Positions 10,419 to 55,881 of a stretch of 64,000 nucleotides of DNA are shown here, piece after piece. A program made the position numbers and the translations under genes. The notes beneath the pieces were generated by a model that saw only the letters and a list, made by a program, of their open reading frames with translations, had not been told where the DNA came from and did no database searches. The DNA comes from a virus: positions 1 through 64,000 of IMG/VR virus record IMGVR_UViG_3300033145_001320. The stretch is one strand, 5' to 3'. Within the stretch, counting starts at the first letter, position 1. Each line of letters starts with the position of its first letter.

Positions 10419-10595
10419 TTATATATCTAGATCTTTTGGATCAAATAAAATTATTTGTTCTTTGGGTACTTCTTTTTCTTCGGCTACTTTACTTAATGTA
10501 AGTTTCGATAGTTTATATTTCCCTGTTGCCGGGAGAGCATACCAGACATATGACGATGATGATGTGTCTGATGATGTTGAATTATACCAGGTCAT
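10419..10595 (-). CDS. Small hypothetical protein (58 aa), not in the ORF track
   Basis: ATGA overlap with the RNAP beta stop; MTWYNSTSSDTSSSSYVWYALP...FDPKDLDI*. Confidence 0.55.
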   Translation of the reverse strand: MTWYNSTSSDTSSSSYVWYALPATGKYKLSKLTLSKVAEEKEVPKEQIILFDPKDLDI

Positions 10596-13594
10596 TTGTG
10601 ATCTACTCCGATAACAGTAAGATATGAATTTAATAACTTAACTGATTCGGGGACTGTATCTATTTCTCTTGTTTCATCTAATAATTGAGATTCAATAAAT
10701 CCACGAATGTAATTATTTTTCAAATCAATACAATCTGATTTGGTTGTTAAAAATTCAAATAAGTTATGTGGAGCATCATGTCCAATTAAACATGCTGTTT
10801 CCATTTCACCACATCGTTGACCGCCTTTATTTTTTCTTCCTCCCAATGGTTGTAGTGTTCTCCTTGCATATGCGCCGATACCACGTGCAGCTAATTTTTC
10901 TTCTGCAATATGAACCATTCTGAAAAAGTAAATATATCCCACAGCAATTTCATGCATAATCTCAGTAGCCGATACTGGGTCATGTAACTTTTCTTTAAAG
11001 TTTGTATTTGTGTATTTAAGAGCTTCCTGTAAGTCTTCCAAGCATGATGATTCAAATGGAGCTTGAATTATTGAAAGGTCTTTTATAAATGTAACATCAA
11101 TTTCCTTTGGCATCAATTCTACAAATTGATTATGATACCAAGACTCATTTGTTTTATCAATTATTTGTATATAGTCAAGAAGATATTTTTTAATCTTATC
11201 CTGTTCAACATCTTCATTTAACATTCTTAACATATTTATTTTTAAGTCTTGAACTGACATTGCAAGATGCAGTTCATACAGCTGACCAATATTCATACGA
11301 GAAATGATACCCAATGGATTTATACATATATCCAAATGACGACCATCTTTAAGTTGTGGCATTTTTTCATGAGGAACTATTCGTGAAATAACACCTTTGT
11401 TTCCATGCCTGTTTGCCATCTTATCCCCAACTTTTACTTTTCGGAAATAGACACCAAATATTTCAACTTTTATACCTGAAACTTTCTCACGTTTGAATTT
11501 GTATTTGCCGACAAATGAAGATTTATCAAGACTCTTCTCTCTAATAATTTTCATTGCCTCATCTTTATCAAATGTATCCTTAATTATTTTTTGTAAGTAT
11601 TTTTCTTTTTCTTGCTGTTGTTCTAAACGTTCTTCAATCCATTTTTTAAACTCAGGCAATTCTTCATTCCATTCATTTGCATAAAGATTTACTTCTGAAA
11701 TTATTAAATTCTTTTTAGCTTCTAACGTAATTGGTTCTGTAAAAACAGAATAGTAATCATCAGTATTTAACTTTTTAAGTTTTGCATAAGCATCTCCCAT
11801 ATTTAATCTTTCCAGATCATCTGGGAGTGGTTTGTATATATTATCTTGTAGAGACAACAATACTTTATCTGGCGTTAATGTGAATGATAAATCTTCAAAA
11901 TGGACTGATGTTAAAGTATCTTCTTCTTGTAATCTTTCAGATATAACAATTCCATCCTCATAATTATTACCATAATAAACCATAACACCTGTAAGTAGAT
12001 TTTTTCCAATATTAATATTTCCGTTATGACAGAAATTACTTTCTGCAAGAATATCACCTGCTTTGAATTTATCTCCTGGTTTCACATACAAGTTCATGAA
12101 GTCCATGTGCTCAACATATATTTTTCTGTAAGATATGTTAAAGATATCTGCTTCACCATTATTATACATGACGATTACATAATCTTTATCAATATGGACA
12201 ACCACTCCAGCATGTTTTGCTCTTTTAACAAATTGTGTTTGATCACTGTACAACCCCTCACAACCTGAAGCAATTAATGGAGAATCAAATTGTTTTAACA
12301 TGATAGATTGACGCATTTGTGATGCTGCCATTTGGAGTCTTGTTTGGTCATCATGTTTTAAAAATGGAGTCATTGAAACAGGTATAGATAGTGGTTGTTT
12401 TTCGCATATATCCCTTGTAAAGCGAAGATCCTCATCTAGGTTGACATTGGGGATTAAGTTCTGTAGAACACCGCAATTATCACGGTCTGGGGTATCGACA
12501 GGGCAAATACGACCAAACATTGTGGGACAAATATCACGTAAATGCTTTGGAATATTCTCCCTTTTGAATCCGCCTGGACCAAGCAAACTGATCCTGGAAA
12601 GCTTTGTCAATTCTTCAACTGGATTAATTGAAAAATCGAATTGTACAATATCTGATACATTACATTCTGATAAAATCTGTGTTGAATTTATATTAAACTT
12701 TGGTTGCCTTGCAGTTCGATTTGAAAAACAAAGATCGAATATGATCTTTGAAATTTTCGATGTTACAATATACTCAAAGCATCTTACACGTTTATTTGTG
12801 AAAAGCATATCATCAACAAATTCAATCTTTAAGATATATAGAATTTCATCTAACAAAGTATCTGTATAAAAGAATTTTCTGCTTATCGGATCTATCTTTG
12901 GAATCAGATCCATTGCATAAAGAACATCCTCGCCTTTTGATTTTGCATTATATTTTGAGTAGTATCTCCCAATTTCTAATATGAAATCATCTTGCGAATA
13001 CCCTCTTGATTCGTCAACAATATCAAACAAATCTCCACGCAAGACTTCAAATAAGTTATCGTCCTGTCTATCAATATCTTCCGACAGTTTGAAAATTCTT
13101 TGAACTTCTTCTAATCCATGATATGCACACAAGAATGTAGCCAAAGGAATTTTCTTTCCAAGGAAACTTATTTTAATAAAAGGCATTTCTTTATCTTTAA
13201 AAACCATGATTGTTGCAACATTGGTCCTTATTTTGATATTTGCTCCCCTTGTTACAATCGGAATATCGTATAGTTGAAACAAAGGAATCTTCTTCCTGCC
13301 ATTGACAATTATGTAGTTATCATCTATCAGCTTTGGCAGAAAAATACTTAAATCAATATTTGCAGGACCCTTTTGTAATTTGATTACTAAAGTTTGTTTA
13401 ATTGTTTTGGATAACTCTCCAGATGAGAACCTTGAATCTTTTAAATCCAATTCAGTTATTGTGAAACCAATTTCTTCAACTGGGGTAACTATTTCTCGGA
13501 CTAAAGGTAAAATCTGCTCATAATCGTTTCTTCTTAATGTGAAGATATTCTTGTCTTCGTTCTGAAGCTTGAAAGTAGGGTTGATAATGTCCAA
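10592..13594 (-). CDS. rpoB: DNA-directed RNA polymerase beta subunit, set 1 (probably non-virion RNAP)
   Basis: GRICPVDTPD, R.QMAASQMRQ, NYEDGIVISE, VGDKMANRHGNKGVIS, NPLGIISRMNIGQ and GGQRCGEME motifs; 1000 aa. Confidence 0.95.
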   Translation of the reverse strand: MDIINPTFKLQNEDKNIFTLRRNDYEQILPLVREIVTPVEEIGFTITELDLKDSRFSSGELSKTIKQTLVIKLQKGPANIDLSIFLPKLIDDNYIIVNGRKKIPLFQLYDIPIVTRGANIKIRTNVATIMVFKDKEMPFIKISFLGKKIPLATFLCAYHGLEEVQRIFKLSEDIDRQDDNLFEVLRGDLFDIVDESRGYSQDDFILEIGRYYSKYNAKSKGEDVLYAMDLIPKIDPISRKFFYTDTLLDEILYILKIEFVDDMLFTNKRVRCFEYIVTSKISKIIFDLCFSNRTARQPKFNINSTQILSECNVSDIVQFDFSINPVEELTKLSRISLLGPGGFKRENIPKHLRDICPTMFGRICPVDTPDRDNCGVLQNLIPNVNLDEDLRFTRDICEKQPLSIPVSMTPFLKHDDQTRLQMAASQMRQSIMLKQFDSPLIASGCEGLYSDQTQFVKRAKHAGVVVHIDKDYVIVMYNNGEADIFNISYRKIYVEHMDFMNLYVKPGDKFKAGDILAESNFCHNGNINIGKNLLTGVMVYYGNNYEDGIVISERLQEEDTLTSVHFEDLSFTLTPDKVLLSLQDNIYKPLPDDLERLNMGDAYAKLKKLNTDDYYSVFTEPITLEAKKNLIISEVNLYANEWNEELPEFKKWIEERLEQQQEKEKYLQKIIKDTFDKDEAMKIIREKSLDKSSFVGKYKFKREKVSGIKVEIFGVYFRKVKVGDKMANRHGNKGVISRIVPHEKMPQLKDGRHLDICINPLGIISRMNIGQLYELHLAMSVQDLKINMLRMLNEDVEQDKIKKYLLDYIQIIDKTNESWYHNQFVELMPKEIDVTFIKDLSIIQAPFESSCLEDLQEALKYTNTNFKEKLHDPVSATEIMHEIAVGYIYFFRMVHIAEEKLAARGIGAYARRTLQPLGGRKNKGGQRCGEMETACLIGHDAPHNLFEFLTTKSDCIDLKNNYIRGFIESQLLDETREIDTVPESVKLLNSYLTVIGVDHK

Positions 13595-13606
13595 GATTAG
13601 AACCTC

Positions 13607-13792
13607 CTAATTTGTATATGTCGATTTATACTCGATAAGCTTTTTCTCTAGTCTATCATCTTCGATATAATAGGGATCAACATTTAATGCGAGTGCGTTC
13701 ATTATAAGTTGTGTGAGTCGGAGATCTGGATTTGCTTTCCAGATCTCCTCGACTCTTTTTAATATTCTATCAATTCGTTCTGGATCTCTCAT
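13607..13792 (-). CDS. DUF1040/YihD-like small protein
   Basis: MRDPERI...W...PDLRLTQLI...YYIEDD pattern. Confidence 0.6.
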   Translation of the reverse strand: MRDPERIDRILKRVEEIWKANPDLRLTQLIMNALALNVDPYYIEDDRLEKKLIEYKSTYTN

Positions 13793-16497
13793 GTTATTTT
13801 TTCACCTTTAAGGATTTTATCCATAACTCCTGAATATCTTCCTTCATACAAGATACCTTGTAAGATTGATCTCTTTGGATTTGAAAATGCCATGGCAAGA
13901 ATCCAACTTTCTTGATTTGGCACAGATTGAATGCTATAATAGTCTGGTTTTATTTTATCTCTATTTGGAATCAATCTCCATTTTTGATAATTTTTCCACA
14001 TTAATTGAGCAACAACACATTCAAAATGTACGTGGTATATATCTTTGTCATACACATCAAATAGTTCTTCAACTATGCTGGTGTACGTTTTTCCTCTAAA
14101 TTTGTGAAGTAACTGTGCAACTGAAGCAAGATCCCCAATAATATCTTTTTGTTTCAATGATGGATCATCCGGATTTTGCTCACCTTTAATAACAGCAGAA
14201 CCTGAAGTATGAAAAGTTCGCAAAACTAATTGAGTTCCTCTTTCACCAAGAGTTTGTGCTGCAATAATACCAATGAATCTACTATTCAAATTCCTATATA
14301 AATCTCCATAACACTTTTTACATATCTTTGGATTTTTACAAAGAATCGGACTTCGCAATTCAATTACTTTTCCAATAATGCTTTCGTAATTGTCAGGAGT
14401 TATTTTTTCAAGAGTATCTCCATTTTTATAATATCTGTTAACTAACATTCTTGCTTTTCTTTTACTTTTAACATCAACGCTTAAGAAGTCTGTTGTACCA
14501 CAGTCATCTACATCTTCATCTATTTGTAAATTTGCACATGTGAATATTAGTTTTCTTGAAAGATAACCACTTGTTCCTGTATTAAGAGCTACATCAAGAA
14601 GACCTTTTCTACAACCATATGTTGAATAGAAAAATTCTTCTGGAGTCAAACCTTCAATTAAGGAATTTTTAATTGGCATTTGTAAAATTTCTCCATCGAA
14701 ATTTGAAATGAAGCCACGACTGAATATTAACTGTTTGACTTGATCCCAACTTCCCCTTGCTCCTGATTCAATCATATATGAATATTTAAATCCATCTCTC
14801 ATTCTTTCTGACAATGCATCATCGGAAAGAGCAATCAATTGATCTCTAGTCTCTGGTAGTGAGTAGATATCTTTTTTAATTTCAGCTAAACCATCAAGAG
14901 GAAAATCATCCAATGAAAGAGTACAACCGAATAATGTGGCATACTTAAATCCAACTCTTTTCACATTATCCAATACTTTAATTACTTCTTCGCTTGGGTA
15001 TTTATCTTTTATATCATTCAGAATATCCAAGAGTTTTCCTTTTGCAATTGTTCCTCTTACTAAAGGATAATCATTTGGTAATTGTTTATTAAATTCTGCT
15101 TCACCCCAAGTTATTTTGTTACCTTCGACTTCAATATCGTCTTTACCATTACTAAATTCCGGTAATGTTAAATAATAAATTCCTAAAATTACATCCTGAC
15201 TTGGAGTTGTTGTAAGACTTTCATTCGCTGGACTGTATAAATTCTTTGCAATTGAAATCTTTTCAATTACTTCTTCTTTTGCTTCAGGTGTAATTGGTAT
15301 ATAAACTGCCATCTGATCCCCATCAAAATCTGCATTGAATGGAGGGCATGCTAATGGATGTATTTTGATAACATGATCTAATGTTAATTTAATTTTGAAT
15401 CCTAGCATGCTTAACCTGTGTAATGATGGTTGTCTGTTCAATATGCAATATTCTCCATCCGTTACAGTTTCACACACCCTAAATAATACAGGATTGTTTT
15501 TATCAATACATTCATCAACAAAATCAATAGCTTGATTCAACAGTTTAAATTTTCCAAGTTCTAAAATACGCTTGGCAATGGGTAATTTAAATATTTCTAA
15601 AACCATTAGATAAGGAAGTTTACATTGTTCCAATTCTAATGTTGGGTCAGGAATGATTACAGCTCGACCAGAAAAATCTATTCTCTTACCAAGAATATTT
15701 CCACGAATCAATCCTTCTTTCTTTGCCATCTTTTCAAGAATACGAGTATATAATTCGTTTACATCTTTTTGTAATTGTTTAAAATAAGTATAATAGAGAG
15801 CTTTATCACGATGAATGTCAATGATTGTGCCCGACATTATTTCTTTCTTTGTCAGGATCTGAACATAATATCTGTTGATTTTATCCATCAACTGTTTGCT
15901 CTCTCCTGAGCTTTTTGATGTTGGCCGAAGTTCCGGAGGTAATACAATTATTTGATTAGTCAAAAGATTATCAATATTGTCAAGAACTAGTTTCCATTCA
16001 TCTACTCCATCACCAACATTATCCTCAGCAACTGCCTTTACTAATTCATATATAGCTTCAGTTCTTTCCCATTTTCGGGCACCTTGCGGTATTGTATCTT
16101 CGGATAATGTTACAACAAATTCTTCATCTGTCATATACAAAATACTTTTATCATTTCGCATTAAATCATCTAATGCTTTTTTGAATGTTTTCCCTGCTAG
16201 GGCAACTAATAAATCATAAAAGAGAGGGTTAACAACTTCAATTGGAATTATGATTTTTGCGAATCTTTTTCTTCGTAAATCGCTGTTAACTATATCGACT
16301 TTGCACTCACTGCATTGTCCCCCTTCTTTTGATACTCCATGATACTTGCCACATTGACAGGTATAATTTCTTACTGGACCAAAAATCTGTTCAGAGAATA
16401 ATCCATCCGGATGAAACTTTCTTTTTCCAAATGTTTTTAGAGACGTCACTTCGTCTAAATTTTCACAAAATGTATCGTAATTTAATATTTTTGGCAT
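13789..16497 (-). CDS. rpoC: DNA-directed RNA polymerase beta' subunit, set 1
   Basis: GLFSEQIFGP, Zn site CQCG...CSEC, GKRIDFSGRAVI, LNRQPSLHR, catalytic NADFDGD, SGARG, T.TSGYL.RKL and TQLVLRTFH; 902 aa. Confidence 0.96.
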   Translation of the reverse strand: MPKILNYDTFCENLDEVTSLKTFGKRKFHPDGLFSEQIFGPVRNYTCQCGKYHGVSKEGGQCSECKVDIVNSDLRRKRFAKIIIPIEVVNPLFYDLLVALAGKTFKKALDDLMRNDKSILYMTDEEFVVTLSEDTIPQGARKWERTEAIYELVKAVAEDNVGDGVDEWKLVLDNIDNLLTNQIIVLPPELRPTSKSSGESKQLMDKINRYYVQILTKKEIMSGTIIDIHRDKALYYTYFKQLQKDVNELYTRILEKMAKKEGLIRGNILGKRIDFSGRAVIIPDPTLELEQCKLPYLMVLEIFKLPIAKRILELGKFKLLNQAIDFVDECIDKNNPVLFRVCETVTDGEYCILNRQPSLHRLSMLGFKIKLTLDHVIKIHPLACPPFNADFDGDQMAVYIPITPEAKEEVIEKISIAKNLYSPANESLTTTPSQDVILGIYYLTLPEFSNGKDDIEVEGNKITWGEAEFNKQLPNDYPLVRGTIAKGKLLDILNDIKDKYPSEEVIKVLDNVKRVGFKYATLFGCTLSLDDFPLDGLAEIKKDIYSLPETRDQLIALSDDALSERMRDGFKYSYMIESGARGSWDQVKQLIFSRGFISNFDGEILQMPIKNSLIEGLTPEEFFYSTYGCRKGLLDVALNTGTSGYLSRKLIFTCANLQIDEDVDDCGTTDFLSVDVKSKRKARMLVNRYYKNGDTLEKITPDNYESIIGKVIELRSPILCKNPKICKKCYGDLYRNLNSRFIGIIAAQTLGERGTQLVLRTFHTSGSAVIKGEQNPDDPSLKQKDIIGDLASVAQLLHKFRGKTYTSIVEELFDVYDKDIYHVHFECVVAQLMWKNYQKWRLIPNRDKIKPDYYSIQSVPNQESWILAMAFSNPKRSILQGILYEGRYSGVMDKILKGEKIT

Positions 16498-16755: not shown

Positions 16756-16960
16756 CGGTTTCCCCTTTTTTATTTATTTTCTCTTTTGTTTTGTTCAAAC
16801 AATTATCAAATACTTCAGAGAAAACTTCAGCTGTTCGTTCAACACATGAGTCAAAAAACTTTCTAGATGATTGTTTTATATTAATTGCCAATTCGTCAAT
16901 AGCATTTAAAGTTGATTCCTTTATTTTTTCTTCGTTAGTGTTTGTTTTGTCTTCCGTCAT
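16748..16960 (-). CDS. Hypothetical protein
   Basis: 70-aa ORF overlapping the next gene. Confidence 0.55.
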   Translation of the reverse strand: MTEDKTNTNEEKIKESTLNAIDELAINIKQSSRKFFDSCVERTAEVFSEVFDNCLNKTKEKINKKGETDD

Positions 16961-16966
16961 TATCAG

Positions 16967-17302
16967 TTACCTCATATTTTTATATTCTATTTCGTCCCAT
17001 GGTGTAAAATAACAATCATCCAAATTAAAAGAGCATAACATTACCCTGATAAAATTAAGAGATTTCTCATTCACTTCCAATTCTCTTATTTTATGTGGAA
17101 TACAAAACTCTCCTGTTTGTGGATCTGCATTTGGATGTGGATTGTTTAAGGTAACTGTGTCAATTTTATCATCAACAGTTTTAATTTTATAATCTCTGAT
17201 TACAAACTTTTTACTGATGTTTGTTATTTCATGGTATTGTTTTTTAAATATAAGTTTGGTTGGGACAATAATCTCCCTAATTCTTTTTGTTTGAATTTTC
17301 AT
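16967..17302 (-). CDS. Mini E2/UBC-like protein
   Basis: HPNADPQTGEFC matches the UBC signature HPN-x7/8-C. Translationally coupled to a ThiF/E1 gene. Confidence 0.55.
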   Translation of the reverse strand: MKIQTKRIREIIVPTKLIFKKQYHEITNISKKFVIRDYKIKTVDDKIDTVTLNNPHPNADPQTGEFCIPHKIRELEVNEKSLNFIRVMLCSFNLDDCYFTPWDEIEYKNMR

Positions 17303-18159
17303 TATGCAGCGCCTGTTTCAGGTATAAGTTCGACCAAATACTTTCCTTTATTTTGTATCAATGAAATAACAAAATTATTAAATTCTTGTTTTGCTACTGC
17401 ATTAGTTAACTGCAATATAAGATCTGTACTTGATTGTAAACTATTCTTTGGCATTGAATATTCAGATAGTGGAAATAAAGATCCTCCGACACAAATATCT
17501 ACATCACTAGTCTTATTTGCTTCCATTATTGGAAGTATTGTATCAGGTAGATTTACAAACTTATCTTCTATAGCTGGACGTTCATATACAATATCACATG
17601 TCTTATTGTCAATATGTTTAACATAATCCAACTCATAATTCTGTATTAATTTATCTTTAACCAAGGTTTCGATTGTATTGTTTGATATTAACATAGCTAC
17701 TAAACTTCCAGCATGTCTAAGATCTTGCTTGTTCAATTGAACAATATATTTACCTTCTGTTTTTATTTTATACTTAACATTCTTTTTACAATCAACCATT
17801 AAATACCTTGATGAAATATATAATCTTACATCTATTTCTCTCCTTCGATCATATGTATAATCTCGACAATCCAAAACTAACTCACATGGAGGGATTTTTG
17901 TTTTCCCTTCAATAAACTTTTCATTTAAAGTTATAATTGTTAAGTCTGGATTTTTATGAGATAATATATCTGTTAATGCTTCTACCTTTGTCATACCAAC
18001 ATCAATTTGTCGATAGATGGAGTTTTTGAGATTCTTTGCTTCAACTTTATCGTGGTCTATAACTATAAGAGTCTCAAGAGTTTCAATATTAGAAAGTGCA
18101 TTGGCAACAAATCCTCCAAGGGTTCCAATGCCAATAACTGCGATTGTTTTATATACCAC
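17302..18159 (-). CDS. ThiF/E1-like adenylation protein (second E1)
   Basis: IAVIGIGTLGG, IDHDKVEAKNL, GMTKVEAL and LDCRD. The C-terminal half is divergent. Confidence 0.85.
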   Translation of the reverse strand: MVYKTIAVIGIGTLGGFVANALSNIETLETLIVIDHDKVEAKNLKNSIYRQIDVGMTKVEALTDILSHKNPDLTIITLNEKFIEGKTKIPPCELVLDCRDYTYDRRREIDVRLYISSRYLMVDCKKNVKYKIKTEGKYIVQLNKQDLRHAGSLVAMLISNNTIETLVKDKLIQNYELDYVKHIDNKTCDIVYERPAIEDKFVNLPDTILPIMEANKTSDVDICVGGSLFPLSEYSMPKNSLQSSTDLILQLTNAVAKQEFNNFVISLIQNKGKYLVELIPETGAA

Positions 18160-18184
18160 GGTCTCATTGTTCTCCTGTTATATT

Positions 18185-18213
18185 AAAATAGGGGGGTCTG
18201 AATCGACCCCCCT
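18185..18213 (-). terminator. Rho-independent terminator after the Ubl gene
   Basis: AGGGGGGTC/GACCCCCCT stem followed by ATTTT on the minus strand. Confidence 0.7.
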
Positions 18214-18237
18214 CTAACACGTTAAGCGTTAATATAG

Positions 18238-18702
18238 TTAGCAGCCTTTCTTTCCTGCGGGTTTCAGGAACTCAAGGTTATCGCTTTGTTTTAGAACATA
18301 GTCTCCGTCAACTTCTTTACCATTGATAAGTCCGGTAGAGAGTTGATCAACATTAAGAACCTCACGTAGAAATTCTCCAACCTGTTTTACGGTACGTCCA
18401 ACAACAGGGAAGTTTCCAGAAGAGGCACCACAAGAAACATGAATAGTAGTGGTAGCACGAGCACCGAATGCTCCGTCAGGTTTGGTTATAACGCTACGAC
18501 CTGTAAATTCAATACCTGTTACAGGTCCACTCTTAGAGATGCTTGCGCTGGCTGGTGCGCCATATTCTGCCATAATGGCAGCGATGACCACATCCTTGGT
18601 TTTCTTTGTCATACCAGGAATATTCAGCTCATATACACACATTCTCTTTAGTTCTCTTGAAGTTTTGTCTTCTAGTTGATCTTTAGTAAAAGTTGTTCCC
18701 AT
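18238..18702 (-). CDS. Ubiquitin-like (beta-grasp) protein with an N-terminal Rho-N/HeH-like helical domain
   Basis: The C-terminal ~70 aa show a ThiS/Ubl pattern (GRTVKQV...LINGKEVDGDYVLKQSDNLEF) ending AGKKG-C. The N-terminus LEDKTSRELKRMC..LNIPGMTKKTKDVVIAAI matches the Rho-N pattern. Lies next to E1/JAB/E2 genes. Confidence 0.8.
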   Translation of the reverse strand: MGTTFTKDQLEDKTSRELKRMCVYELNIPGMTKKTKDVVIAAIMAEYGAPASASISKSGPVTGIEFTGRSVITKPDGAFGARATTTIHVSCGASSGNFPVVGRTVKQVGEFLREVLNVDQLSTGLINGKEVDGDYVLKQSDNLEFLKPAGKKGC

Positions 18703-18721
18703 TTTTAAATCTCCTTCGATT

Positions 18722-19423
18722 TTAGTTTATTGATCTAATTTTAGAGTTTGTATTCATAGTCAGAATATCAAAATAAACTTCTGACCGTTCATAGGACTCT
18801 TTGACAACGGCATTGTAAAAAGTCCAACACATGATAGTTGCAACTCCCAAATTCGCAAAGTAGAGTTGCGGTTCTGACACAGATAGTTCCTCACAGGACA
18901 TTTCGGTAGGTAACTTATCATCGGGATTTGCGATTTCTGGATGGTATTTGCACAAGTCAGGCGTGAGATCTTTGCTTTCTCTTCGCACATACAGTTGTAC
19001 ATTTCCATCTGTAAAATCATTCCCACCGGATATTAAAATAACATTTTTCATTTCTTTACAGTAATTTGATATGACCATCCGGGTTTTGTGATTATCTACA
19101 CACATAAATATAATATCGCCTTCATGAATAACCTCACCAACATTTTCTGGTGTGATATATTCTTCAAAGACGTCAAACCGCAGTCTATCGAATTTAGCCT
19201 CCAATTCAGTCGCTTTTATGTCTGCCTTATTTCCAAGTCTTGTGAACTCTTGTCTTTCATAGTTCTTCGGTTCATAATCATCGCCGTCCACAAGCAAGAT
19301 ATCTGCGGCCATATCTTGTGAAAAGTTCATAAATCGGCATAAGCGTTCAATAAGAATAGACCCAATACCACCAAGCCCAATAACAACAATATTATGGTCG
19401 ACCATCTTTACCTCCAAACACAC
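18722..19423 (-). CDS. E1/ThiF-family activating enzyme (PRTRC-ThiF/Bub-type); true start probably MVDHN near 19402
   Basis: VVIGLGGIGS, DGDDYEPKNYERQ, GNKA, CVDNHKTR, ISGGN, putative catalytic Cys in MSCEE, and QLYFAN. Confidence 0.9.
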   Translation of the reverse strand: MCLEVKMVDHNIVVIGLGGIGSILIERLCRFMNFSQDMAADILLVDGDDYEPKNYERQEFTRLGNKADIKATELEAKFDRLRFDVFEEYITPENVGEVIHEGDIIFMCVDNHKTRMVISNYCKEMKNVILISGGNDFTDGNVQLYVRRESKDLTPDLCKYHPEIANPDDKLPTEMSCEELSVSEPQLYFANLGVATIMCWTFYNAVVKESYERSEVYFDILTMNTNSKIRSIN

Positions 19424-21014
19424 GTCTGAATTTTGACATTAATGATCCATCGTGTCGTGGATCAACAGGAATTTCTGTGATTGGAATTTGTGGTTCACTT
19501 GGATCTGGGATTTTTATTATAGTTTCTTCAATAGCTAGAGCATTTGCTTCTTCTGATTCAGTATCTAAAAATGCTCCTGTATCCATCTCTGATTGAGAGA
19601 TTCTTTCTTCCTCTGTATCAACTCCTTTGATATCTTCTTCCTCAATCAATGAATAGCAAAATGGACATATTGTTTCACCTGCAAAAGCATGGAAAGAATT
19701 TCCACATGTGTTGCATGTGAGATACTCTGTATCCTCTTTAAGACCAGGTTCCTTTTGTAGATGTGACTGGTCAAGTTCGCTAATATAATTCTCAGGCAAG
19801 TCTTCCTCATCTAAAGGAATGAGATAGTCATCCGTTTTGCATATCGGACATAGTGGCATATCAATAGATTCAGTATCCTCAATAACAACAGTTTCACATT
19901 GTTTACAGATATAAATTTCAGGTTCGTAATCTTCACCTGCTTCCTCAGCTAAGAATTTATGACCTCTGAATACACATGTTTGACATGGAATGAACTCATC
20001 ATCTTCGCTATCTGTAACTTCAACCTTATGCATAGGAAACTTAATTACATTTCCAGACTTTGTATCAGGTAACGCTGAAGGTTTTGTAACACCTGGTTTG
20101 GATTGCGGAGGAACAAATCCTGCTTGTTTCCATAAATCAGCATCATAATGACCACCGTAACCACCGTAACCACCATACCCATACCCAGGATAACCAGGAT
20201 ATGTTACTCCACCTGATCTTCCAGCATACTTGTAAGTATAAGTTCCCTTTTCAACCATTTCCATCCATTGAGGAATTACTCTATGATATTTATCAGATAC
20301 ATTAACTGTAAAACGTTTGTCTAGTTTTCGATAGGAATATGAGGATTGTTTGCCTGCTACAATATCTTCAACCATTTTCCCATGTTCCCATTTGAATACT
20401 CGCCTTATCGGTCTGTTTTCCATCTTATCAATATCCACGGTTTTAACTAACCGCTCAACATAGTCTTCTGGATTAATAACAAATCTATGCCCATTTGCAA
20501 CAATCGAAGCTGTGATACTCACATCCTCATCTTTCATGTTTCCAATGGTAATATGAAGACCATCGAAATGTTTTTCATCTGAATCATCAGTTCCAGAATG
20601 AAATGCAGACATATTAGCATGACTGTGAATTGTACCAATCATCTGCATACCATCTATAGTTATTCCTTTATTGTAATCACACGCAGCACCTGTAACCTTT
20701 TGATGAGGCGGGACAATTTTATATACTCTTTTTACTTCATCATAGAAAAGCAATACAATTGCTTCCCCATAATACTCGGCATATACTGCACGAAAGAAAG
20801 CAATAACCCTGGCAAATTGACCACCAGGGATTTTCTTAATGTTCATTCGTGCCATTGAATCGACGCTTTCTAATATAGAAATGTTATCAACTGGGGCAAT
20901 GCTTTCCATTATCCCAACTTTCTTTTTGAGAAATACACCTTCCTTTGCCACAATGTAACATATATCATCGTTTGGAATATCTGTCGTCCCATCATTAACA
21001 TGTACTGGAAACAT
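19392..21014 (-). CDS. JAB/MPN metallopeptidase (Ubl processing/deconjugating) with Gly/Tyr-rich linker and C-terminal Zn-ribbons
   Basis: YGEAIV...GTIHSHANMSAFHSGTDDSDE (E...HSH-x7-S-x2-D JAMM motif), YPGYPGYGYGGYGGYGG, and five CxxC pairs. Confidence 0.9.
   Translation of the reverse strand: MFPVHVNDGTTDIPNDDICYIVAKEGVFLKKKVGIMESIAPVDNISILESVDSMARMNIKKIPGGQFARVIAFFRAVYAEYYGEAIVLLFYDEVKRVYKIVPPHQKVTGAACDYNKGITIDGMQMIGTIHSHANMSAFHSGTDDSDEKHFDGLHITIGNMKDEDVSITASIVANGHRFVINPEDYVERLVKTVDIDKMENRPIRRVFKWEHGKMVEDIVAGKQSSYSYRKLDKRFTVNVSDKYHRVIPQWMEMVEKGTYTYKYAGRSGGVTYPGYPGYGYGGYGGYGGHYDADLWKQAGFVPPQSKPGVTKPSALPDTKSGNVIKFPMHKVEVTDSEDDEFIPCQTCVFRGHKFLAEEAGEDYEPEIYICKQCETVVIEDTESIDMPLCPICKTDDYLIPLDEEDLPENYISELDQSHLQKEPGLKEDTEYLTCNTCGNSFHAFAGETICPFCYSLIEEEDIKGVDTEEERISQSEMDTGAFLDTESEEANALAIEETIIKIPDPSEPQIPITEIPVDPRHDGSLMSKFRRVFGGKDGRP
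20150..20200 (-). repeat. Short coding tandem repeat (YPG/YGG units) inside the JAB gene
   Basis: accaccgta units repeated; encodes YPGYPGYGYGGYGGYGGHY. Confidence 0.7.
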
Positions 21015-23592
21015 TTATTAAACTCCTTTCATCTTTTAACAAGATGTATGGCGATATCTTACTTTCCATAAATAAACCATGAAAGTTTGGCCATGCTTTA
21101 ACTGATTCTAGTTTAGCTTGCTCGCTTTGCCCAATCCGTGGATTAGGAATACAATCAAATACAGTATGATTCTTTACATAATTATCTACCTTATAATCAC
21201 TTGCGTGGGAGGCATATGCCCCAAGGGACACTATACGTGGATTCTTATATTGTTGTACTCTGCTTACCATCCACCCAGTGCTGCTTCTAAAATCAGATAA
21301 ACCCAATAACAAATCTCCACATTGTAATTTGATTTTTGTAATATCAATAGGAGCATGTGCTAATTCTGGCCATTTTTTAGATTTCATAGTTACTCGTTTA
21401 AAGTTTTCCATCATTTCACTATACCATAATGTACAGCAATTAGAGCATAAGACTAATGGGTCCTCTCCACCTGTATCTGTAATAAAACCAATAATTATAT
21501 TCACATCCTTCTTTGGAAAGTGTGGAATATATCCTTTTTCTGCTACAATTTTTGTTCCTGCTGAAACCCTCCCATATTTATTTGTGATTTTTCTTATTTT
21601 TCCAACATGAATATATGCTGCAGTTCCGCCAGATCCAGTACCATTAATATATACAACTTCTGTCAATCTACCTTCCTTATCAGAAAGTACAAAGCTCAAG
21701 CTGTGACTGTCACCATCTGTTTTAAAACCTTCAATAGTTCTAGGTATTAGCATGTTGATAGGATTATCCCAATCTGCATAAACAACTTTATCACCAACAT
21801 TGAATGTTATATCAAGATCAAAACTTTCAATGTGAAGAGTTGTTCCAGAATTGATCAACAGATGTTTTATAACATCTGTTATGGTTGGTGTTGATACAGA
21901 ATAATTATTGTTAAATGCTATCCCTTCTGGTGTTCCCCATGCATACCCGCTTTTAGGATGTCCATCAAATTTATAAGCTAGGAGTCTACGCCCACATCTA
22001 AATACTGGAGACATTAACTTTGTATGTTCTTTATTATATAGTGGTTTTTGTTCTCCAGATTGAGCATCAATAACTATAGGTCGATCTACTTTACCTACTC
22101 CTACTGTTTGAAATTCTAATAATAGATTATTATTTCCTTCATTAACAGTCAGACCAGAAAATTTGACTTCTTGCCCCGAGTTCATAATCCCTCCACTATT
22201 TGTGGAAGTAAAGATAATATATCTATCCTTTTTATTCAGTTCTACTCCATAGTAAGTTGGGTTGTCTACATCAAGTACTTTACCTACTGTATTCTCCAAA
22301 ATGTAGAATGAATTACCAAGGCGTGCTTCAGTTATACCATCTCTTGATTTTCTGATAAAGTAAACTCTTTTATAGACATCCCTACCTAGATGATTTTTAA
22401 TTACAACAATATCATCTTCTTTAATAACTATTCCATTTTTCAATGTACCTTGTTCTTCAAACCTGAGTTTCTTAATAGCGTCATGAATAAAGGTTTTTAC
22501 CTTTGGAGTTAACCTTACATTAATAAGACGTTTGTTTTCAAGCTCAAGTTGAATATAACGGATTTTATCAGAATCATAAAATCCAATGAATGAATTGATA
22601 AATGCGGTTTGTTTCCCCCAAGCAATCGGGTCGCCAACATGAATATAAAAAGTCCTTGTAAGATATATTCCTTGTGCAATATCATAATATAATGACTGTG
22701 TCTTACGTGCTTTTGGTGTTGGTTTTTCCTTCTTACCAGTGTCAACACTTTGTGTAAATATTCTAGATAGCTCTCTATATTGTATATTTCCAGTTGCGGT
22801 ATTATTATAATTAGTTTTGATAGAGGAGATTGTTTCATAGAGAGTTGGTTTTATTCTGATCCAATCAACATTATAAATAAACATTGGATCTATTTTAGAC
22901 ATTGCTTCCCAACCAATATATGTATTTACTCCGGGAATGGAATCATACGCAGTATAGTTATATGTGTAATCTCCATTAAATTCCGCAGACCAAAATACCA
23001 TAATTGCATTTTCGATTCCAGCATTTAAACTCTGTTGTCTTGTGTGTGCTTTGTCTCCAAAACAAATTGATTGTTCTCCGCTTATATTCATCATTGGCAT
23101 TTTTAGCAAGTAATCGCTATACCCTGCCAATCTTGCATTTCGTAGATATACGTGCCCCACCATTAATGATGAATGTTTATCAAACATAAGAATGAAAATT
23201 GTATAAGGAAATGCTAATGTAAAGCTGAATGGTGCGTTATGTCCATCTTTATAATATGCAGCATTGATCCCATACTCTTCAATCTTTCCTTCACCTTCAA
23301 GAGTTTTAAGCTCTCTATCCATACCATAGTTAACTTTTATGGTTCTGTATGCAGGAGGTTCTTCAATAACCACAATATGACCATTTTGTAATTTTTCAAG
23401 GTATCTGCAATTCGGAGGAAGAATCCCTTGTTGTGTAATCCCCGAAGTTATCTTTTGCAAATAACCATCTGTTCTTGTAACATGATGCCTGATCTTCGGT
23501 GTTGCAATGTCTTTCGATGTTTGGGCAAATTCCGAAGTTACATGCTGTACATAATTTGAATTAATTCTTATTTCATCCAACATTTCTGTCAT
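20995..23592 (-). CDS. Prokaryotic E2-like (Prok-E2 D / PRTRC protein B-like) domain fused to a ~600-aa unknown beta-rich extension
   Basis: N-terminal EEPPAYRTI, FPYTIF, LLKMPMMNISGEQSICFG (PxxN...IC.G) and FWSAEFN. Overlaps the JAB gene. Confidence 0.7.
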   Translation of the reverse strand: MTEMLDEIRINSNYVQHVTSEFAQTSKDIATPKIRHHVTRTDGYLQKITSGITQQGILPPNCRYLEKLQNGHIVVIEEPPAYRTIKVNYGMDRELKTLEGEGKIEEYGINAAYYKDGHNAPFSFTLAFPYTIFILMFDKHSSLMVGHVYLRNARLAGYSDYLLKMPMMNISGEQSICFGDKAHTRQQSLNAGIENAIMVFWSAEFNGDYTYNYTAYDSIPGVNTYIGWEAMSKIDPMFIYNVDWIRIKPTLYETISSIKTNYNNTATGNIQYRELSRIFTQSVDTGKKEKPTPKARKTQSLYYDIAQGIYLTRTFYIHVGDPIAWGKQTAFINSFIGFYDSDKIRYIQLELENKRLINVRLTPKVKTFIHDAIKKLRFEEQGTLKNGIVIKEDDIVVIKNHLGRDVYKRVYFIRKSRDGITEARLGNSFYILENTVGKVLDVDNPTYYGVELNKKDRYIIFTSTNSGGIMNSGQEVKFSGLTVNEGNNNLLLEFQTVGVGKVDRPIVIDAQSGEQKPLYNKEHTKLMSPVFRCGRRLLAYKFDGHPKSGYAWGTPEGIAFNNNYSVSTPTITDVIKHLLINSGTTLHIESFDLDITFNVGDKVVYADWDNPINMLIPRTIEGFKTDGDSHSLSFVLSDKEGRLTEVVYINGTGSGGTAAYIHVGKIRKITNKYGRVSAGTKIVAEKGYIPHFPKKDVNIIIGFITDTGGEDPLVLCSNCCTLWYSEMMENFKRVTMKSKKWPELAHAPIDITKIKLQCGDLLLGLSDFRSSTGWMVSRVQQYKNPRIVSLGAYASHASDYKVDNYVKNHTVFDCIPNPRIGQSEQAKLESVKAWPNFHGLFMESKISPYILLKDERSLINVSSTC

Positions 23593-44499: not shown

Positions 44500-44508
44500 A
44501 GCAACTCC

Positions 44509-55879: not shown

Positions 55880-55881
55880 TC

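What the first reader, a model, noticed from the sequence alone, without database searches (positions are those of the whole stretch)
18238..18702. Ubl fused to a Rho-N-like nucleic-acid-binding domain and capped by a single Cys after the terminal Gly
SEEN: residues ~8-46 fit the Rho-N/HeH helical pattern. A linker follows, then a beta-grasp domain ending ...KPAGKKG-C-stop, with a terminator right after the gene. INFERENCE: the JAB must remove the Cys to expose the Gly, acting as a maturation switch. Conjugation would then attach a nucleic-acid-binding module to targets, tethering them to DNA or RNA instead of marking them for degradation.
Basis: partly seen in the sequence, partly recalled or inferred. 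Interest (0 to 1): 0.7.

Follow-up and report, generated by a model that had tools for sequence, protein, structure and literature searches.

The report
Phage ubiquitin-like tag with HeH head
An uncultured huge phage encodes a small ubiquitin-like protein with a Rho-type helical head, next to its own activating, conjugating and trimming enzymes, so this phage clade probably runs its own protein-tagging system whose targets are unknown.

Summary
Window 18238-18702 (minus strand) encodes a 154-aa protein with three parts: a Rho_N/HeH-like helical head (residues ~5-48), a variable linker, and a beta-grasp domain ending KPAGKKG-C-stop. A terminator-like hairpin follows 25 nt after the stop.

The gene lies in a block that is syntenic in all 58 related IMG/VR contigs. 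The block holds a PRTRC_B/Prok-E2_D-like protein, a JAMM peptidase, two ThiF/E1 proteins and a 111-aa UBC-like protein with invariant HPN...C. The beta-grasp is the best-conserved segment of the block (median 79% identity, against 69-70% for the RNA polymerase subunits).

The conserved feature is the terminal K-G. The Cys cap is optional: 34 of 58 phage orthologues end at Gly. Relatives also occur with 0-2 HeH heads and as head-to-tail poly-Ubl.

A conjugated modifier is the best reading (about 0.65). JAB trimming is plausible and has a precedent in BilA/BilC, but an obligatory "maturation switch" is not supported. Tethering to nucleic acid is untested. A sulfur carrier is unlikely.

This is a new variant of a known kind. 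The scan had already noted this protein on other phage DNA.

The parts
18238..18702 (-). HeH-Ubl gene, 154 aa plus stop (TAA at 18238-18240)
   Evidence: ORF list and sequence; 417 homologues at E<=0.001.
18559..18690 (-). Rho_N/HeH-like head, residues 5-48. G30, K33 and K36 are invariant and K34 is >=90% conserved in the extended loop.
   Evidence: Pfam Rho_N E=0.012 here and 17 of 46 homologues at E<=0.01. Best structural match is the Rho N-terminal domain 1a62_A, Z 5.5, rmsd 2.1 A over 46 residues. Invariant columns.
18454..18558 (-). Linker, residues 49-83. It comprises a variable Ala/Ser/Pro-rich stretch (49-62) and a semi-conserved pre-grasp segment (63-83, with S70, T73, P75 and G80 invariant).
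   Evidence: pLDDT <50 over 51-74 and 76-96. Median identity is 14% for 49-62 and 43% for 63-83 in 46 orthologues. Invariant columns.
18244..18453 (-). Beta-grasp Ubl domain, residues 84-153, ending K147-P-A-G-K-K-G153. The S90-C-G-A-S-S-G96 loop is conserved.
   Evidence: TGS and ThiS weak hits. Model secondary structure. VIA and Foldseek rows. Median 79% identity.
18241..18243 (-). Cys154 codon: an optional one-residue cap after the terminal Gly
   Evidence: C-termini of 120 homologues: +C 81, none 34, +F 3, +N 1, +Y 1. C-termini of 58 loci: none 34, +C 18.
18190..18213 (-). Terminator-like hairpin followed by ATTTTAAT
   Evidence: By my crude criteria, 20 of 58 related loci have a hairpin of -15 kcal/mol or stronger with a T-rich tail within 90 nt after the stop.
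18711..18716 (-). Shine-Dalgarno AAGGAG, 8 nt before the ATG. Only 19 nt separate the E1a stop from the Ubl start, so the Ubl is probably co-transcribed with E1a.
   Evidence: Read from the sequence.
18722..19423 (-). E1a, 233 aa, a ThiF-type adenylating enzyme. GxGGxG, R57-Q58, D110-N111, Cys177 and Cys199 are invariant.
   Evidence: ThiF 2.8e-18. PRTRC_ThiF 8.4e-11, below cut-off. Conservation in 47 sequences.
19392..21014 (-). JAB/JAMM peptidase, 540 aa, with C-terminal CxxC zinc ribbons. E84, H130, H132, S140 and D143 are invariant.
   Evidence: Prok-JAB 1.2e-5. PRTRC_A 2.7e-10, below cut-off. Conservation in 48 sequences. Predicted complex with the Ubl tail.
20995..23592 (-). 865-aa protein. 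Its N-terminal ~260 aa are Prok-E2_D/PRTRC_B-like with invariant Cys177. The remaining ~600 aa are unexplained.
   Evidence: Prok-E2_D in 37 of 43 orthologues, best 2.7e-6. PRTRC_B in 16 of 43, best 2.2e-4. Invariant columns. No PDB sequence match for residues 301-865.
17302..18159 (-). E1b, 285 aa, a second and more divergent ThiF-like protein, downstream of the terminator
   Evidence: ThiF 7.1e-16. Only 11 residues are invariant (28 conserved at >=90%) in 49 sequences, and the RQ motif is not conserved.
16967..17302 (-). 111-aa UBC-like protein. Its start overlaps the E1b stop. H55, N57 and C66 are invariant (HPN-x8-C).
   Evidence: A3 alignment. AF2 pLDDT 97.1. Best VIA match is the UBC enzyme 1yrv_A, Z 5.0, rmsd 3.9 A, 93 aligned, and most rows are E2 enzymes.

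Best explanation
The gene encodes a phage-made ubiquitin-like modifier.

Shown by sequence and comparison:
- The protein has a Rho_N/HeH-type head, a flexible linker and a beta-grasp whose conserved end is K-G.
- The end is bare or carries a short, variable cap, which is Cys in this copy.
- The gene is a single-copy core gene of an uncultured huge-phage clade.
- It always sits with a JAMM peptidase, two E1-like proteins and two proteins that each carry an invariant E2-type cysteine.

Inferred mechanism:
1. Where a cap or a poly-Ubl precursor exists, the JAB cuts after Gly153.
2. E1a adenylates Gly153 and takes the Ubl onto its invariant Cys177.
3. The Ubl passes to an E2-type cysteine. This is Cys66 of the 111-aa UBC-like protein and/or Cys177 of the 865-aa Prok-E2_D-like protein.
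4. The Ubl is then joined to an amine on unknown phage or host targets.
5. The JAB also reverses the link.

The head is an accessory binding module that travels with the tag, either to nucleic acid or to a partner protein. Its copy number varies from 0 to 2 or more among relatives, which fits a module that works by valency.
For: - Architecture.
- Terminal K-G: 127 of 138 cluster representatives with a complete C-terminal beta-grasp. G150, K152 and G153 are invariant in A1.
This is the pattern of processed modifiers.
- Synteny: rSAM-WYL-s127-big865-JAB-E1a-Ubl-E1b-mini111-...-RNAP is kept in all 58 IMG/VR loci as far as each contig reaches.
- Constraint: the beta-grasp has median 79% identity, against RNAP beta/beta' at 69/70%, E1a 62%, JAB 41% and big865 36%.
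- Enzyme sites are intact and invariant: the JAMM E..HxH..S..D motif, the E1a nucleotide motifs and Cys177, mini111 HPN..C and big865 Cys177.
- E2 likeness: Prok-E2_D in 37 of 43 orthologues. The mini111 model has pLDDT 97.1, and its best VIA rows are UBC enzymes at Z up to 5.0.
- JAB-Ubl predicted complex: score 0.62 against a best control of 0.07 out of 3 controls. The mark was reached by 58 of 80 solved complexes and 2 of 110 mismatched pairs. The runs agree in >=94% of contacts and the partner pLDDT is >=74. My own alignments were used, so these counts hold only roughly. The Ubl tail 146-154 touches the JAMM site residues. JAMM-ubiquitin complexes have been solved, so the pass may reflect likeness to them.
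- Precedent: Ensifer aridi BilA has its conserved Gly one residue from the end, and BilC pre-processes it (passages).
- One copy per genome in 5 of 5 records searched.
Against: - Nothing here shows conjugation, and no target or E3 is known.
- The Ubl is below every curated family cut-off: Rho_N 16.1 bits against 24.9, TGS 14.7 against 22.2, and no NCBIfam, PHROG or PADLOC family.
- Fold evidence is weak. Mean pLDDT is 62.7. There is no Foldseek match at E<=0.001. VIA Z is at most 5.5, a range the tool warns can be a common arrangement. The profile search against PDB sequences gave nothing meaningful; the best hit was an FHA domain at E=0.02.
- The terminal dipeptide is K-G, not the G-G of ubiquitin, ThiS or MoaD.
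- mini111 matches Pfam UQ_con in only 1 of 44 sequences.
- My narrow profile did not find the head in 45 of the 150 representatives, so the head is not needed for the core function.
- The head is only mildly basic.
Confidence: 0.65

Rival explanations
1. Sulfur carrier. The beta-grasp is a ThiS/MoaD/CysO-like protein. An E1-like enzyme converts its terminal Gly to a thiocarboxylate, which serves a phage biosynthetic step such as a thio-modified base. The JAB only removes the Cys, as described (from my recall) for QbsD acting on QbsE and Mec+ acting on CysO-Cys.
For: - Weak ThiS and MoaD likeness: ThiS 6 of 46 and 9 of 14, moaD_arch 14 of 46 with best E 0.01, MoaD chains at Z about 5.
- ThiF-type partners are present. 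The closest solved relatives of E1a are TcdA, Uba4, UBA5 and ThiF.
- The encoded Gly-Cys end looks like a CysO-cysteine adduct (recalled).
- A radical SAM gene and 7-deazaguanine genes (FolE2) lie in the same window.
Against: - Two E2-type proteins with invariant cysteines always accompany the gene. Sulfur-carrier operons have none (statement in the Chambers et al. introduction).
- The end is K-G, not G-G.
- Poly-Ubl and multi-HeH forms have no sulfur-carrier parallel.
- Rhodanese was found in 0 of 5 related phage records, which are 26-79% complete. PP-loop ATP_bind_3 gave only sub-threshold hits in 2 of 5.
- None of the 20 largest other ORFs of the window is a sulfurtransferase.
Confidence: 0.08
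2. Non-covalent adaptor. The protein is never conjugated. The beta-grasp is a docking subunit of the E1/JAB/E2-like complex, or of the neighbouring RNA polymerase. The head places that complex on DNA or RNA. The terminal Gly is kept only for binding in the E1 or JAB pocket.
For: - Many beta-grasp domains (TGS, UBX, RA) act only as binding modules, and TGS is the commonest weak Pfam hit (20 of 46).
- The gene always lies beside the RNAP beta'/beta genes.
- PRTRC-type cassettes, the nearest named relatives of the enzymes, have no demonstrated conjugation that my literature search turned up (listing only).
Against: - A bare, invariant C-terminal Gly with variable removable caps and poly-Ubl precursors is hard to explain without C-terminal chemistry.
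- The catalytic residues of JAB, E1a and both E2-like proteins are invariant.
Confidence: 0.12
3. Same conjugation chemistry, but the head is a protein-docking module (for example for the 865-aa protein, a virion or a replication protein) and not a nucleic-acid binder. Conjugation would then recruit or cross-link proteins and would not tether them to DNA or RNA.
For: - The head is only mildly basic (+1 here; range -1 to +6).
- Helix-loop-helix modules of this size also serve protein-protein contacts (general knowledge, recalled).
- No other HeH copy exists in the window, nor in four larger related records.
Against: - The best structural matches are nucleic-acid-associated modules: the Rho N-terminal domain (Z 5.5) and a stretch of FAN1, 8s5a_A 465-509, which I recall to be its SAP domain (Z 4.3).
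- The invariant residues are the G-x-[TS]-K-K-x-K loop.
- Tandem duplication of the head in 14 of 150 relatives suits avidity on a polymer.
Confidence: 0.15

Closest known systems
Type II BilABCD (formerly CEHH/6C) Ubl BilA with DUB BilC, E1 BilD and E2 BilB (Chambers et al., PMC10557695; passages read)
   Same: - Single beta-grasp Ubl with a universally conserved Gly followed by 0-9 non-conserved residues. E. aridi BilA has exactly one capping residue (Ala98).
- A JAB peptidase of the operon pre-processes the Ubl and also deconjugates it.
- Separate E1 and E2 proteins.
- Some BilA proteins carry extra N-terminal domains.
   Different: - This cassette is encoded by a phage as a syntenic core block, not by a bacterial defence island.
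- The enzymes resemble PRTRC_A, PRTRC_B and PRTRC_ThiF and not Bil. PADLOC BilD gave only E=0.006 for E1a, and no Bil model hit the JAB, the Ubl or the E2-like proteins.
- The end is K-G.
- There are two E1-like and two E2-like genes.
- The head is HeH/Rho_N, which is not among the N-terminal domains listed in the sections I read.
Bub (formerly 6E/DUF6527) operon Ubls with diverse N-terminal domains (Gong et al., PMC11601603; outline and sections 3 and 5 read)
   Same: - A Ubl preceded by an accessory N-terminal module (N/G-rich tail, coiled coil or tandem DUF1508).
[quoted passage not shown]
- A bacterial-type E1/E2/peptidase set.
   Different: - No DUF6527 protease or Ubl-E2 fusion is seen here.
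- The tandem beta-grasp relatives here are head-to-tail units, each ending in the K-G tail, like polyubiquitin. They are not a three-domain Ubl3.
- The head is HeH.
PRTRC system (NCBIfam TIGR03735 protein A, TIGR03737 protein B, TIGR03736 ThiF). I recall this to be the 6d class of Iyer, Burroughs and Aravind 2006 (PMC1779556, passages), but I did not verify the equation.
   Same: - The three enzymes give their best named matches to PRTRC_A (JAB, 2.7e-10), PRTRC_ThiF (E1a, 8.4e-11) and PRTRC_B (big865 N-terminus, 16 of 43, best 2.2e-4).
- Cultured Bacillus and Vibrio jumbo phages also carry an adjacent PRTRC_A-like JAB plus ThiF pair.
   Different: - All scores lie far below the curated cut-offs (40.1 against 101.8; 41.7 against 144.75).
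- No NCBIfam Ubl-type model (PRTRC protein C) matches the Ubl in 0 of 46.
- No ParB was seen among the ORFs I scanned.
- The extra E1b plus UBC-like pair, the 600-aa extension of the E2 protein and the HeH head are not PRTRC features.
Eukaryotic polyubiquitin and Atg8-type precursors (recalled, from no call)
   Same: - Head-to-tail precursors, or a one-residue cap after the reactive Gly, removed by a dedicated peptidase before E1 activation.
   Different: - There is no detectable sequence relationship beyond the fold.
- The peptidase here is a JAMM metalloenzyme, and the end is K-G.
Sulfur carriers trimmed by JAMM peptidases (QbsE/QbsD, CysO/Mec+; recalled, from no call)
   Same: - A beta-grasp with a Gly end extended by Cys-containing residues that a JAMM enzyme removes.
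- A ThiF-type partner.
   Different: - E2-type proteins are present.
- The end is K-G, not G-G.
- No sulfurtransferase was found.

Membership tests
Conjugated bacterial/phage Ubl modifiers (Bil/Bub type) | Beta-grasp fold | tested here: inconclusive
   The model's secondary structure fits, and most VIA and Foldseek rows are Ub, SUMO, ISG15 or MoaD. However, Z is at most 5.3, no Foldseek match reaches E<=0.001, and domain pLDDT is about 70-77. TGS 20 of 46 and ThiS 6 of 46, all weak hits.
Conjugated bacterial/phage Ubl modifiers (Bil/Bub type) | Conserved C-terminal Gly, bare or followed by a short non-conserved extension | tested here: met
   G153 is invariant in A1. K-G ends 127 of 138 representatives. 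The extension is 0 residues in 82, 1 in 27 and 2-75 in 29. Among 58 loci, 34 are bare and 18 carry +C.
Conjugated bacterial/phage Ubl modifiers (Bil/Bub type) | Operon with E1, E2 (catalytic Cys) and a JAB/DUB | tested here: met
   ThiF x2, Prok-JAB and Prok-E2_D (37 of 43), plus a UBC-like 111-aa protein with invariant HPN..C. The arrangement is syntenic in 58 of 58 loci as far as the contigs reach.
Conjugated bacterial/phage Ubl modifiers (Bil/Bub type) | Ubl is covalently attached to targets | not testable with these tools
   This needs biochemistry or proteomics.
PRTRC system (NCBIfam) | Proteins A, B, C and ThiF score above the curated cut-offs | tested here: not met
   PRTRC_A 40.1 bits against a cut-off of 101.8. 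PRTRC_ThiF 41.7 against 144.75. PRTRC_B matched in 16 of 43 at best E 2.2e-4, and not in the window's copy. No PRTRC Ubl model matched in 0 of 46.
PRTRC system (NCBIfam) | Associated ParB-like protein | not tested
   No ParB family appeared among the 28 window ORFs scanned with Pfam. I ran no dedicated search.
ThiS/MoaD sulfur carriers | C-terminal Gly-Gly and family score above the Pfam cut-off | tested here: not met
   The end is K-G. ThiS hits are weak (best E 1.1e-3 in A1, 1.7e-4 in A2), and none was reported for the window's copy at E<=0.1.
ThiS/MoaD sulfur carriers | Sulfur donor or acceptor enzymes in the same genome, and no E2 | tested here: not met
   Rhodanese 0 of 5 records. ATP_bind_3 gave only sub-threshold hits in 2 of 5. 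E2-like proteins are present. The records are 26-79% complete, so absence is not proven.
Rho_N / HeH (SAP, LEM) helical modules | About 40 aa forming helix, extended loop, helix; match to PF07498 | tested here: inconclusive
   The window's copy is below the cut-off (16.1 against 24.9 bits). 17 of 46 homologues match at E<=0.01, best 2.6e-6. The Atlas clusters carry Rho_N on 15% and 51% of members. Rho N-terminal domain 1a62_A: Z 5.5, rmsd 2.1 A, 46 aligned, which is under the tool's caution line for helical folds.
Rho_N / HeH (SAP, LEM) helical modules | Binds nucleic acid | not testable with these tools
   Only net charge could be computed: +1 here, mean +2.3.

The most novel reading that the evidence does not exclude
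The phage uses its E1/E2 set to polymerise or graft HeH-Ubl units onto DNA-associated proteins or onto one another. Possible acceptors on the Ubl itself are the conserved lysines next to the tail (K147 and K152 invariant, K151 >=90%). The product would be a covalent, multivalent DNA- or RNA-binding coat or tether, a kind of enzymatically assembled phage 'chromatin' or genome anchor, which the JAB can dissolve. Relatives with two or more heads and poly-Ubl precursors would be genetic shortcuts to the same multivalency. A bolder variant is attachment to a non-protein amine such as a lipid or a nucleic-acid end.
Probability: 0.12. Interest if true: 0.85.

Novelty: new variant of a known kind. Interest (0 to 1): 0.58.

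Why it matters
Bacterial ubiquitin-like conjugation has so far been characterised as host defence against phages (Bil, type II CBASS) or as a stress response (Bub), according to the papers read.

Here the machinery belongs to the phage. It is a single-copy core block beside the RNA polymerase genes of a widespread, uncultured huge-phage clade from sediments, and the tag is more conserved than the polymerase itself.

If the tag is conjugated, these phages run their own post-translational tagging system. The tag carries a second, probably nucleic-acid-directed, module. That would open questions on targets, on counter-defence and on how phage genomes are organised.

The K-G end also gives a practical handle. 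Trypsin should leave a single-Gly remnant (+57.02 Da) on modified lysines.

Tried and rejected
- Known phage relatives. tblastn of the Ubl against 50,697 GenBank phage records found no match. E1a and the JAB domain found only distant (26-43% identity) adjacent JAB plus ThiF pairs in Bacillus, Vibrio and Salmonella jumbo phages. My beta-grasp and HeH profiles found nothing within +/-5 kb of those pairs in two of them. I therefore do not claim that these cultured phages carry this Ubl.
- Profile against PDB sequences. A1 gave nothing meaningful. A4 gave 0 hits. big865 residues 301-865 gave 1 hit at E=0.86.
- Context of distant relatives (poly-Ubl P0151, beta-grasp-only P0246). Both viral-contig scans found no relative. 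The metagenome scan returned L060, a 1.3-kb fragment, and L061. The L061 match lies inside a NusA-like gene of a bacterial contig, and I reject it as a false hit. The listing of cluster members gave no informative names (the only names were 'hypothetical protein').
- Complex prediction. Only the JAB-Ubl pair was sent. E1a, E1b, mini111 and big865 pairings were not tested.
- Expression. No RNA holder was listed for window 16900-21100, so I laid no reads.
- High-expression codon signal suggested by earlier notes. The gene's GC is 42.6% against a gene mean of 33.2% (rank 3 of 45). GC3 is only 29.7% against 22.8% (z 1.3, rank 5). Most of the rise comes from Gly/Ala-rich composition, so I do not use it as evidence of bulk expression.
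- Other HeH copies. There are none in the window's 489 stop-to-stop frames at E<=10. There is no second match in 5 records.
- Literature. Seven searches found no paper describing a phage-encoded HeH-Ubl. I saw listings and abstracts only, apart from the papers named elsewhere in this report. An Asgard-virus preprint reports three ThiF/E1-like genes in Nidhogg viruses (passages), but I could not test any relation. Supplementary tables of Gong et al. and Chambers et al. list Ubl architectures and may contain such a head. Supplements were closed.

Rows left out:
- A1 holds 46 of the 120 listed homologues, picked by eye to spread identity.
- A3 holds 43 distinct sequences out of 50 orthologues.
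- A4 holds 42 of 51 (at least 700 aa and distinct).
- A5 holds 31 of 45 distinct JAB N-termini. The 14 left out were mostly ORF calls with extended starts.
- One search counted domains with i-Evalue <=0.01 that span at least 25 profile positions. Seven HeH-only rows are fragments.
Full report
WHAT IS THERE

The finding's coordinates are exact, but the gene is on the minus strand. Window 18238-18702 encodes 154 aa, starts with ATG and ends ...LEFLKPAGKKGC followed by TAA. An AAGGAG Shine-Dalgarno sequence sits 8 nt before the ATG. Only 19 nt separate the gene from the stop of the upstream ThiF gene. Twenty-five nucleotides after the stop lies a 9-bp hairpin with 7 G-C pairs followed by ATTTTAAT (18213-18190, minus strand). 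The 7.6-kb region has 6 such sites against 2.8 +/- 1.9 in shuffles.

ANATOMY

(i) Head, residues ~5-48.
- Pfam Rho_N matches 9-44 below threshold in this copy (E=0.012, 16.1 bits against 24.9).
- 17 of 46 aligned homologues match at E<=0.01, the best at 2.6e-6.
- The AF2 model (mean pLDDT 62.7; head 72-84) has helices at 7-11, 15-24 and 36-47.
- Against 48,161 PDB chains its best match overall is the N-terminal domain of Rho (1a62_A: Z 5.5, rmsd 2.1 A, 46 aligned). A stretch of FAN1, which I recall to be its SAP domain, scores Z 4.3. The tool warns that such Z values can reflect a common helical arrangement.
- The invariant residues lie in the extended loop (G30, K33, K36; K34 at >=90%).
- Net charge is +1 here and averages +2.3 in 46 homologues.

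(ii) Linker, residues 49-83.
- The first part is variable (median identity 14%), and residues 63-83 are semi-conserved (43%).
- pLDDT is below 50 across the linker (51-74 and 76-96).

(iii) Beta-grasp, residues 84-153.
- The model shows strands, a helix and further strands at pLDDT about 70-77.
- Pfam hits are weak: TGS 20 of 46 and ThiS 6 of 46 in A1, and 9 of 14 each in a more diverse set.
- VIA rows are dominated by Fubi, ISG15, ubiquitin, SUMO and MoaD at Z 4.2-5.3.
- Foldseek gave no match at E<=0.001, although its weak top rows are ubiquitin-like, TGS, TtuB and ThiS.

(iv) End.
- K147, P148, A149, G150, K152 and G153 are invariant.

THE FAMILY

There are 417 homologues at E<=0.001 among proteins of similar length. 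An exhaustive profile search found 764 cluster representatives, 178 of them at E<=1e-10. None carries an informative name (at most 'hypothetical protein'). Atlas clusters are 98-100% viral.

C-termini:
- Among the 120 closest homologues: +Cys 81, none 34, +Phe 3, +Asn 1, +Tyr 1.
- Among 58 IMG/VR orthologues: none 34, +Cys 18, +Arg 1, +Phe 1, longer or odd 4.
- Among 138 representatives with a complete last beta-grasp: none 82, one residue 27 (Cys 17), 2-75 residues 29. The last two residues are K-G in 127.

Architectures in the best 150 representatives, as counted by my two profiles:

| HeH heads | Beta-grasp domains | Representatives |
|---|---|---|
| 1 | 1 | 84 |
| 2 | 1 | 14 |
| 0 | 1 | 37 |
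| 0 | 2-4 | 8 |
| 1 | 0 (fragments) | 7 |

By eye, one protein (P0158) has three heads. The eight multi-grasp proteins are head-to-tail units, each ending ..G.KG.

Variable caps plus polyubiquitin-like precursors are the signature of a C-terminus that a peptidase must free.

CONTEXT

The record is an 81.8-kb IMG/VR virus contig that CheckV estimates to be 26% complete. Related records reach 248 kb at 79%, so this is a huge-phage clade. No GenBank phage is close: RNAP beta' shares less than 30% identity with any. The best DNA holders are runs labelled marine sediment or sediment metagenomes, and one of them may be the source sample.

The window also holds the following:
- two sets of multisubunit RNAP genes;
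- topoisomerase II genes;
- SbcC;
- FolE2;
- a DUF2201/VWA gene next to an AAA-type ATPase gene;
- a PfkB kinase.

The block rSAM - WYL_2 - 127 aa - 865 aa - JAB - E1a - Ubl - E1b - 111 aa - ... - RNAP beta' - RNAP beta is colinear in all 58 related loci as far as each contig reaches.

Median identity to the window's proteins:

| Protein or segment | Median identity |
|---|---|
| Ubl beta-grasp | 79% |
| RNAP beta' | 70% |
| RNAP beta | 69% |
| E1a | 62% |
| Ubl, whole protein | 59% |
| Ubl head | 50% |
| JAB | 41% |
| E1b | 39% |
| 111-aa protein | 37% |
| 865-aa protein | 36% |

The gene is single-copy in 5 of 5 records searched.

THE ENZYMES

- JAB. Prok-JAB scores 1.2e-5 and PRTRC_A 2.7e-10, below cut-off. 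E84, H130, H132, S140 and D143 are invariant. A C-terminal CxxC pair is conserved in 47 of 48 sequences, and four further pairs occur in about 35 of 48.
- E1a. ThiF scores 2.8e-18 and PRTRC_ThiF 8.4e-11, below cut-off. GxGGxG, R57-Q58, D110-N111, Cys177 and Cys199 are invariant.
- 865-aa protein. The N-terminal ~260 aa match Prok-E2_D in 37 of 43 orthologues (best 2.7e-6) and PRTRC_B in 16 of 43 (best 2.2e-4), with invariant Cys177. The other ~600 aa remain unexplained.
- E1b. A ThiF fold with few invariant residues and no conserved RQ motif.
- 111-aa protein. Its start overlaps the E1b stop. H55, N57 and C66 are invariant (HPN-x8-C). The AF2 model has pLDDT 97.1. Foldseek gives no match at E<=0.001, but most of the 47 rows printed are entries of UBC-type E2 enzymes, judged by title. 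VIA's best match is the UBC enzyme 1yrv_A (Z 5.0, rmsd 3.9 A, 93 aligned). Many other E2s follow at lower Z, and bacterial E2-containing entries (a Citrobacter Bub complex, a CdnG-E2 complex, Cap2) appear further down the list. Pfam UQ_con matches only 1 of 44.

The cassette therefore has what a conjugation pathway needs, and its core trio is a distant relative of the PRTRC cassette.

JAB AND THE TAIL

I sent one complex job: JAB(1-200) with Ubl(58-154).
- The score was 0.62, and the best of 3 controls scored 0.07.
- This mark was reached by 58 of 80 solved complexes and by 2 of 110 mismatched pairs.
- The runs agree in >=94% of contacts, and the partner pLDDT is >=74.
- I used my own alignments, so the calibration counts hold only roughly.
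- The interface joins Ubl residues 146-154 and the S-C-G-A-S-S loop (90-95) to JAB residues that include E84, H130, H132, S140 and D143.
- JAMM-ubiquitin complexes have been solved, so the pass may reflect likeness to them. It supports binding but does not show it.

WHAT IT MOST LIKELY DOES

The protein is most likely a phage-made ubiquitin-like modifier (confidence about 0.65). The inferred steps are:
1. The JAB frees Gly153 where a cap or a poly-precursor exists.
2. E1a adenylates and thioesters the Ubl.
3. An E2-type cysteine takes it over.
4. The Ubl is joined to an amine on unknown targets.
5. The JAB reverses the link.

The head rides along as a second binding module. None of these steps is shown here.

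The Cys cap cannot be an obligatory switch, because most relatives lack it.

A one-residue cap removed by the operon's JAB is not new. Ensifer aridi BilA has Gly97-Ala98, BilC pre-processes it, and BilA proteins carry 0-9 residues after the conserved Gly (passages).

N-terminal accessory domains on bacterial Ubls are also described: N/G-rich tails, coiled coils and DUF1508 (section 5 of Gong et al.). An HeH/Rho_N head is not among those named in what I could read.

Tethering to DNA or RNA is a reasonable guess. The structural neighbours, the lysine-rich loop and the head duplications all point that way. It remains untested, and a protein-docking role is a live alternative.

RIVALS

- Sulfur carrier (0.08). 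The E2-type proteins, the K-G end, the poly-Ubl forms and the lack of rhodanese (0 of 5 records) argue against it. PP-loop hits are below threshold. The records are incomplete, so the absences are not proof.
- Non-covalent adaptor (0.12). This is hard to square with the bare invariant Gly, the removable caps and the invariant catalytic residues.

NOVELTY

Seven literature searches found no description of this protein or of a phage-core Ubl cassette of this kind. The nearest items are bacterial Bil, Bub and PRTRC systems and a report of E1-like genes in Asgard viruses. I rate the finding a new variant of a known kind.

Earlier notes of this scan had already flagged the same protein in five other phage genomes. 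One follow-up report reached a similar reading. I re-derived the points I use here. I found the suggested codon or GC signal of high expression weak in this copy.

Noticed in passing
window 16967-18159 (minus strand): A second ThiF-like gene (E1b, 285 aa, degenerate motifs) overlaps by its stop the start of a 111-aa UBC-like protein with invariant HPN-x8-C. E1a plus E1b could form a heterodimeric E1 with one active and one degenerate adenylation domain, as in BilD and eukaryotic E1s. I did not test this.
   Followed up: partly
window 20995-23592 (minus strand): Only the first ~260 aa of the 865-aa protein are Prok-E2_D/PRTRC_B-like. The remaining ~600 aa have no Pfam, PHROG or PDB-sequence match. 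They may be a built-in substrate-selecting part.
   Followed up: partly
L002 10535-11116, and about half of the related loci: In many related phages a gene is inserted between the Ubl and E1b. The gap is about 620-1170 nt instead of about 70-100 nt. In L002 the inserted gene is a 193-aa ORF of unknown family.
   Followed up: no
window 10592-16497 and 51791-58905 (minus strand): There are two separate sets of unsplit multisubunit RNA polymerase beta/beta'-like genes: 1000 + 902 aa and 1362 + 1007 aa. This recalls the virion and non-virion polymerases of jumbo phages. The Ubl cassette abuts the smaller set in every related locus.
   Followed up: partly
L062 (Bacillus phage vB_BauM_KLEB27-3) 3482-5732; L063 (Vibrio phage D69) 3791-5849: Cultured jumbo phages carry an adjacent PRTRC_A-like JAB plus ThiF pair, with a ~230-290-nt stretch between the two genes that is unannotated in L062 and holds only a 30-aa annotated CDS in L063. 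My Ubl and HeH profiles find nothing there, so any Ubl would have to be of another family.
   Followed up: partly
window 43066-45774 and 47707-48675 (minus strand): A DUF2201 metallopeptidase/VWA-like protein lies next to an AAA-type ATPase gene (weak AAA_22 hit). An ARPP-1 domain protein (1.7e-21) lies close by. These are conflict-system-type genes inside the phage.
   Followed up: no
This suggests 7-deazaguanine modification of the phage DNA.
   Followed up: no
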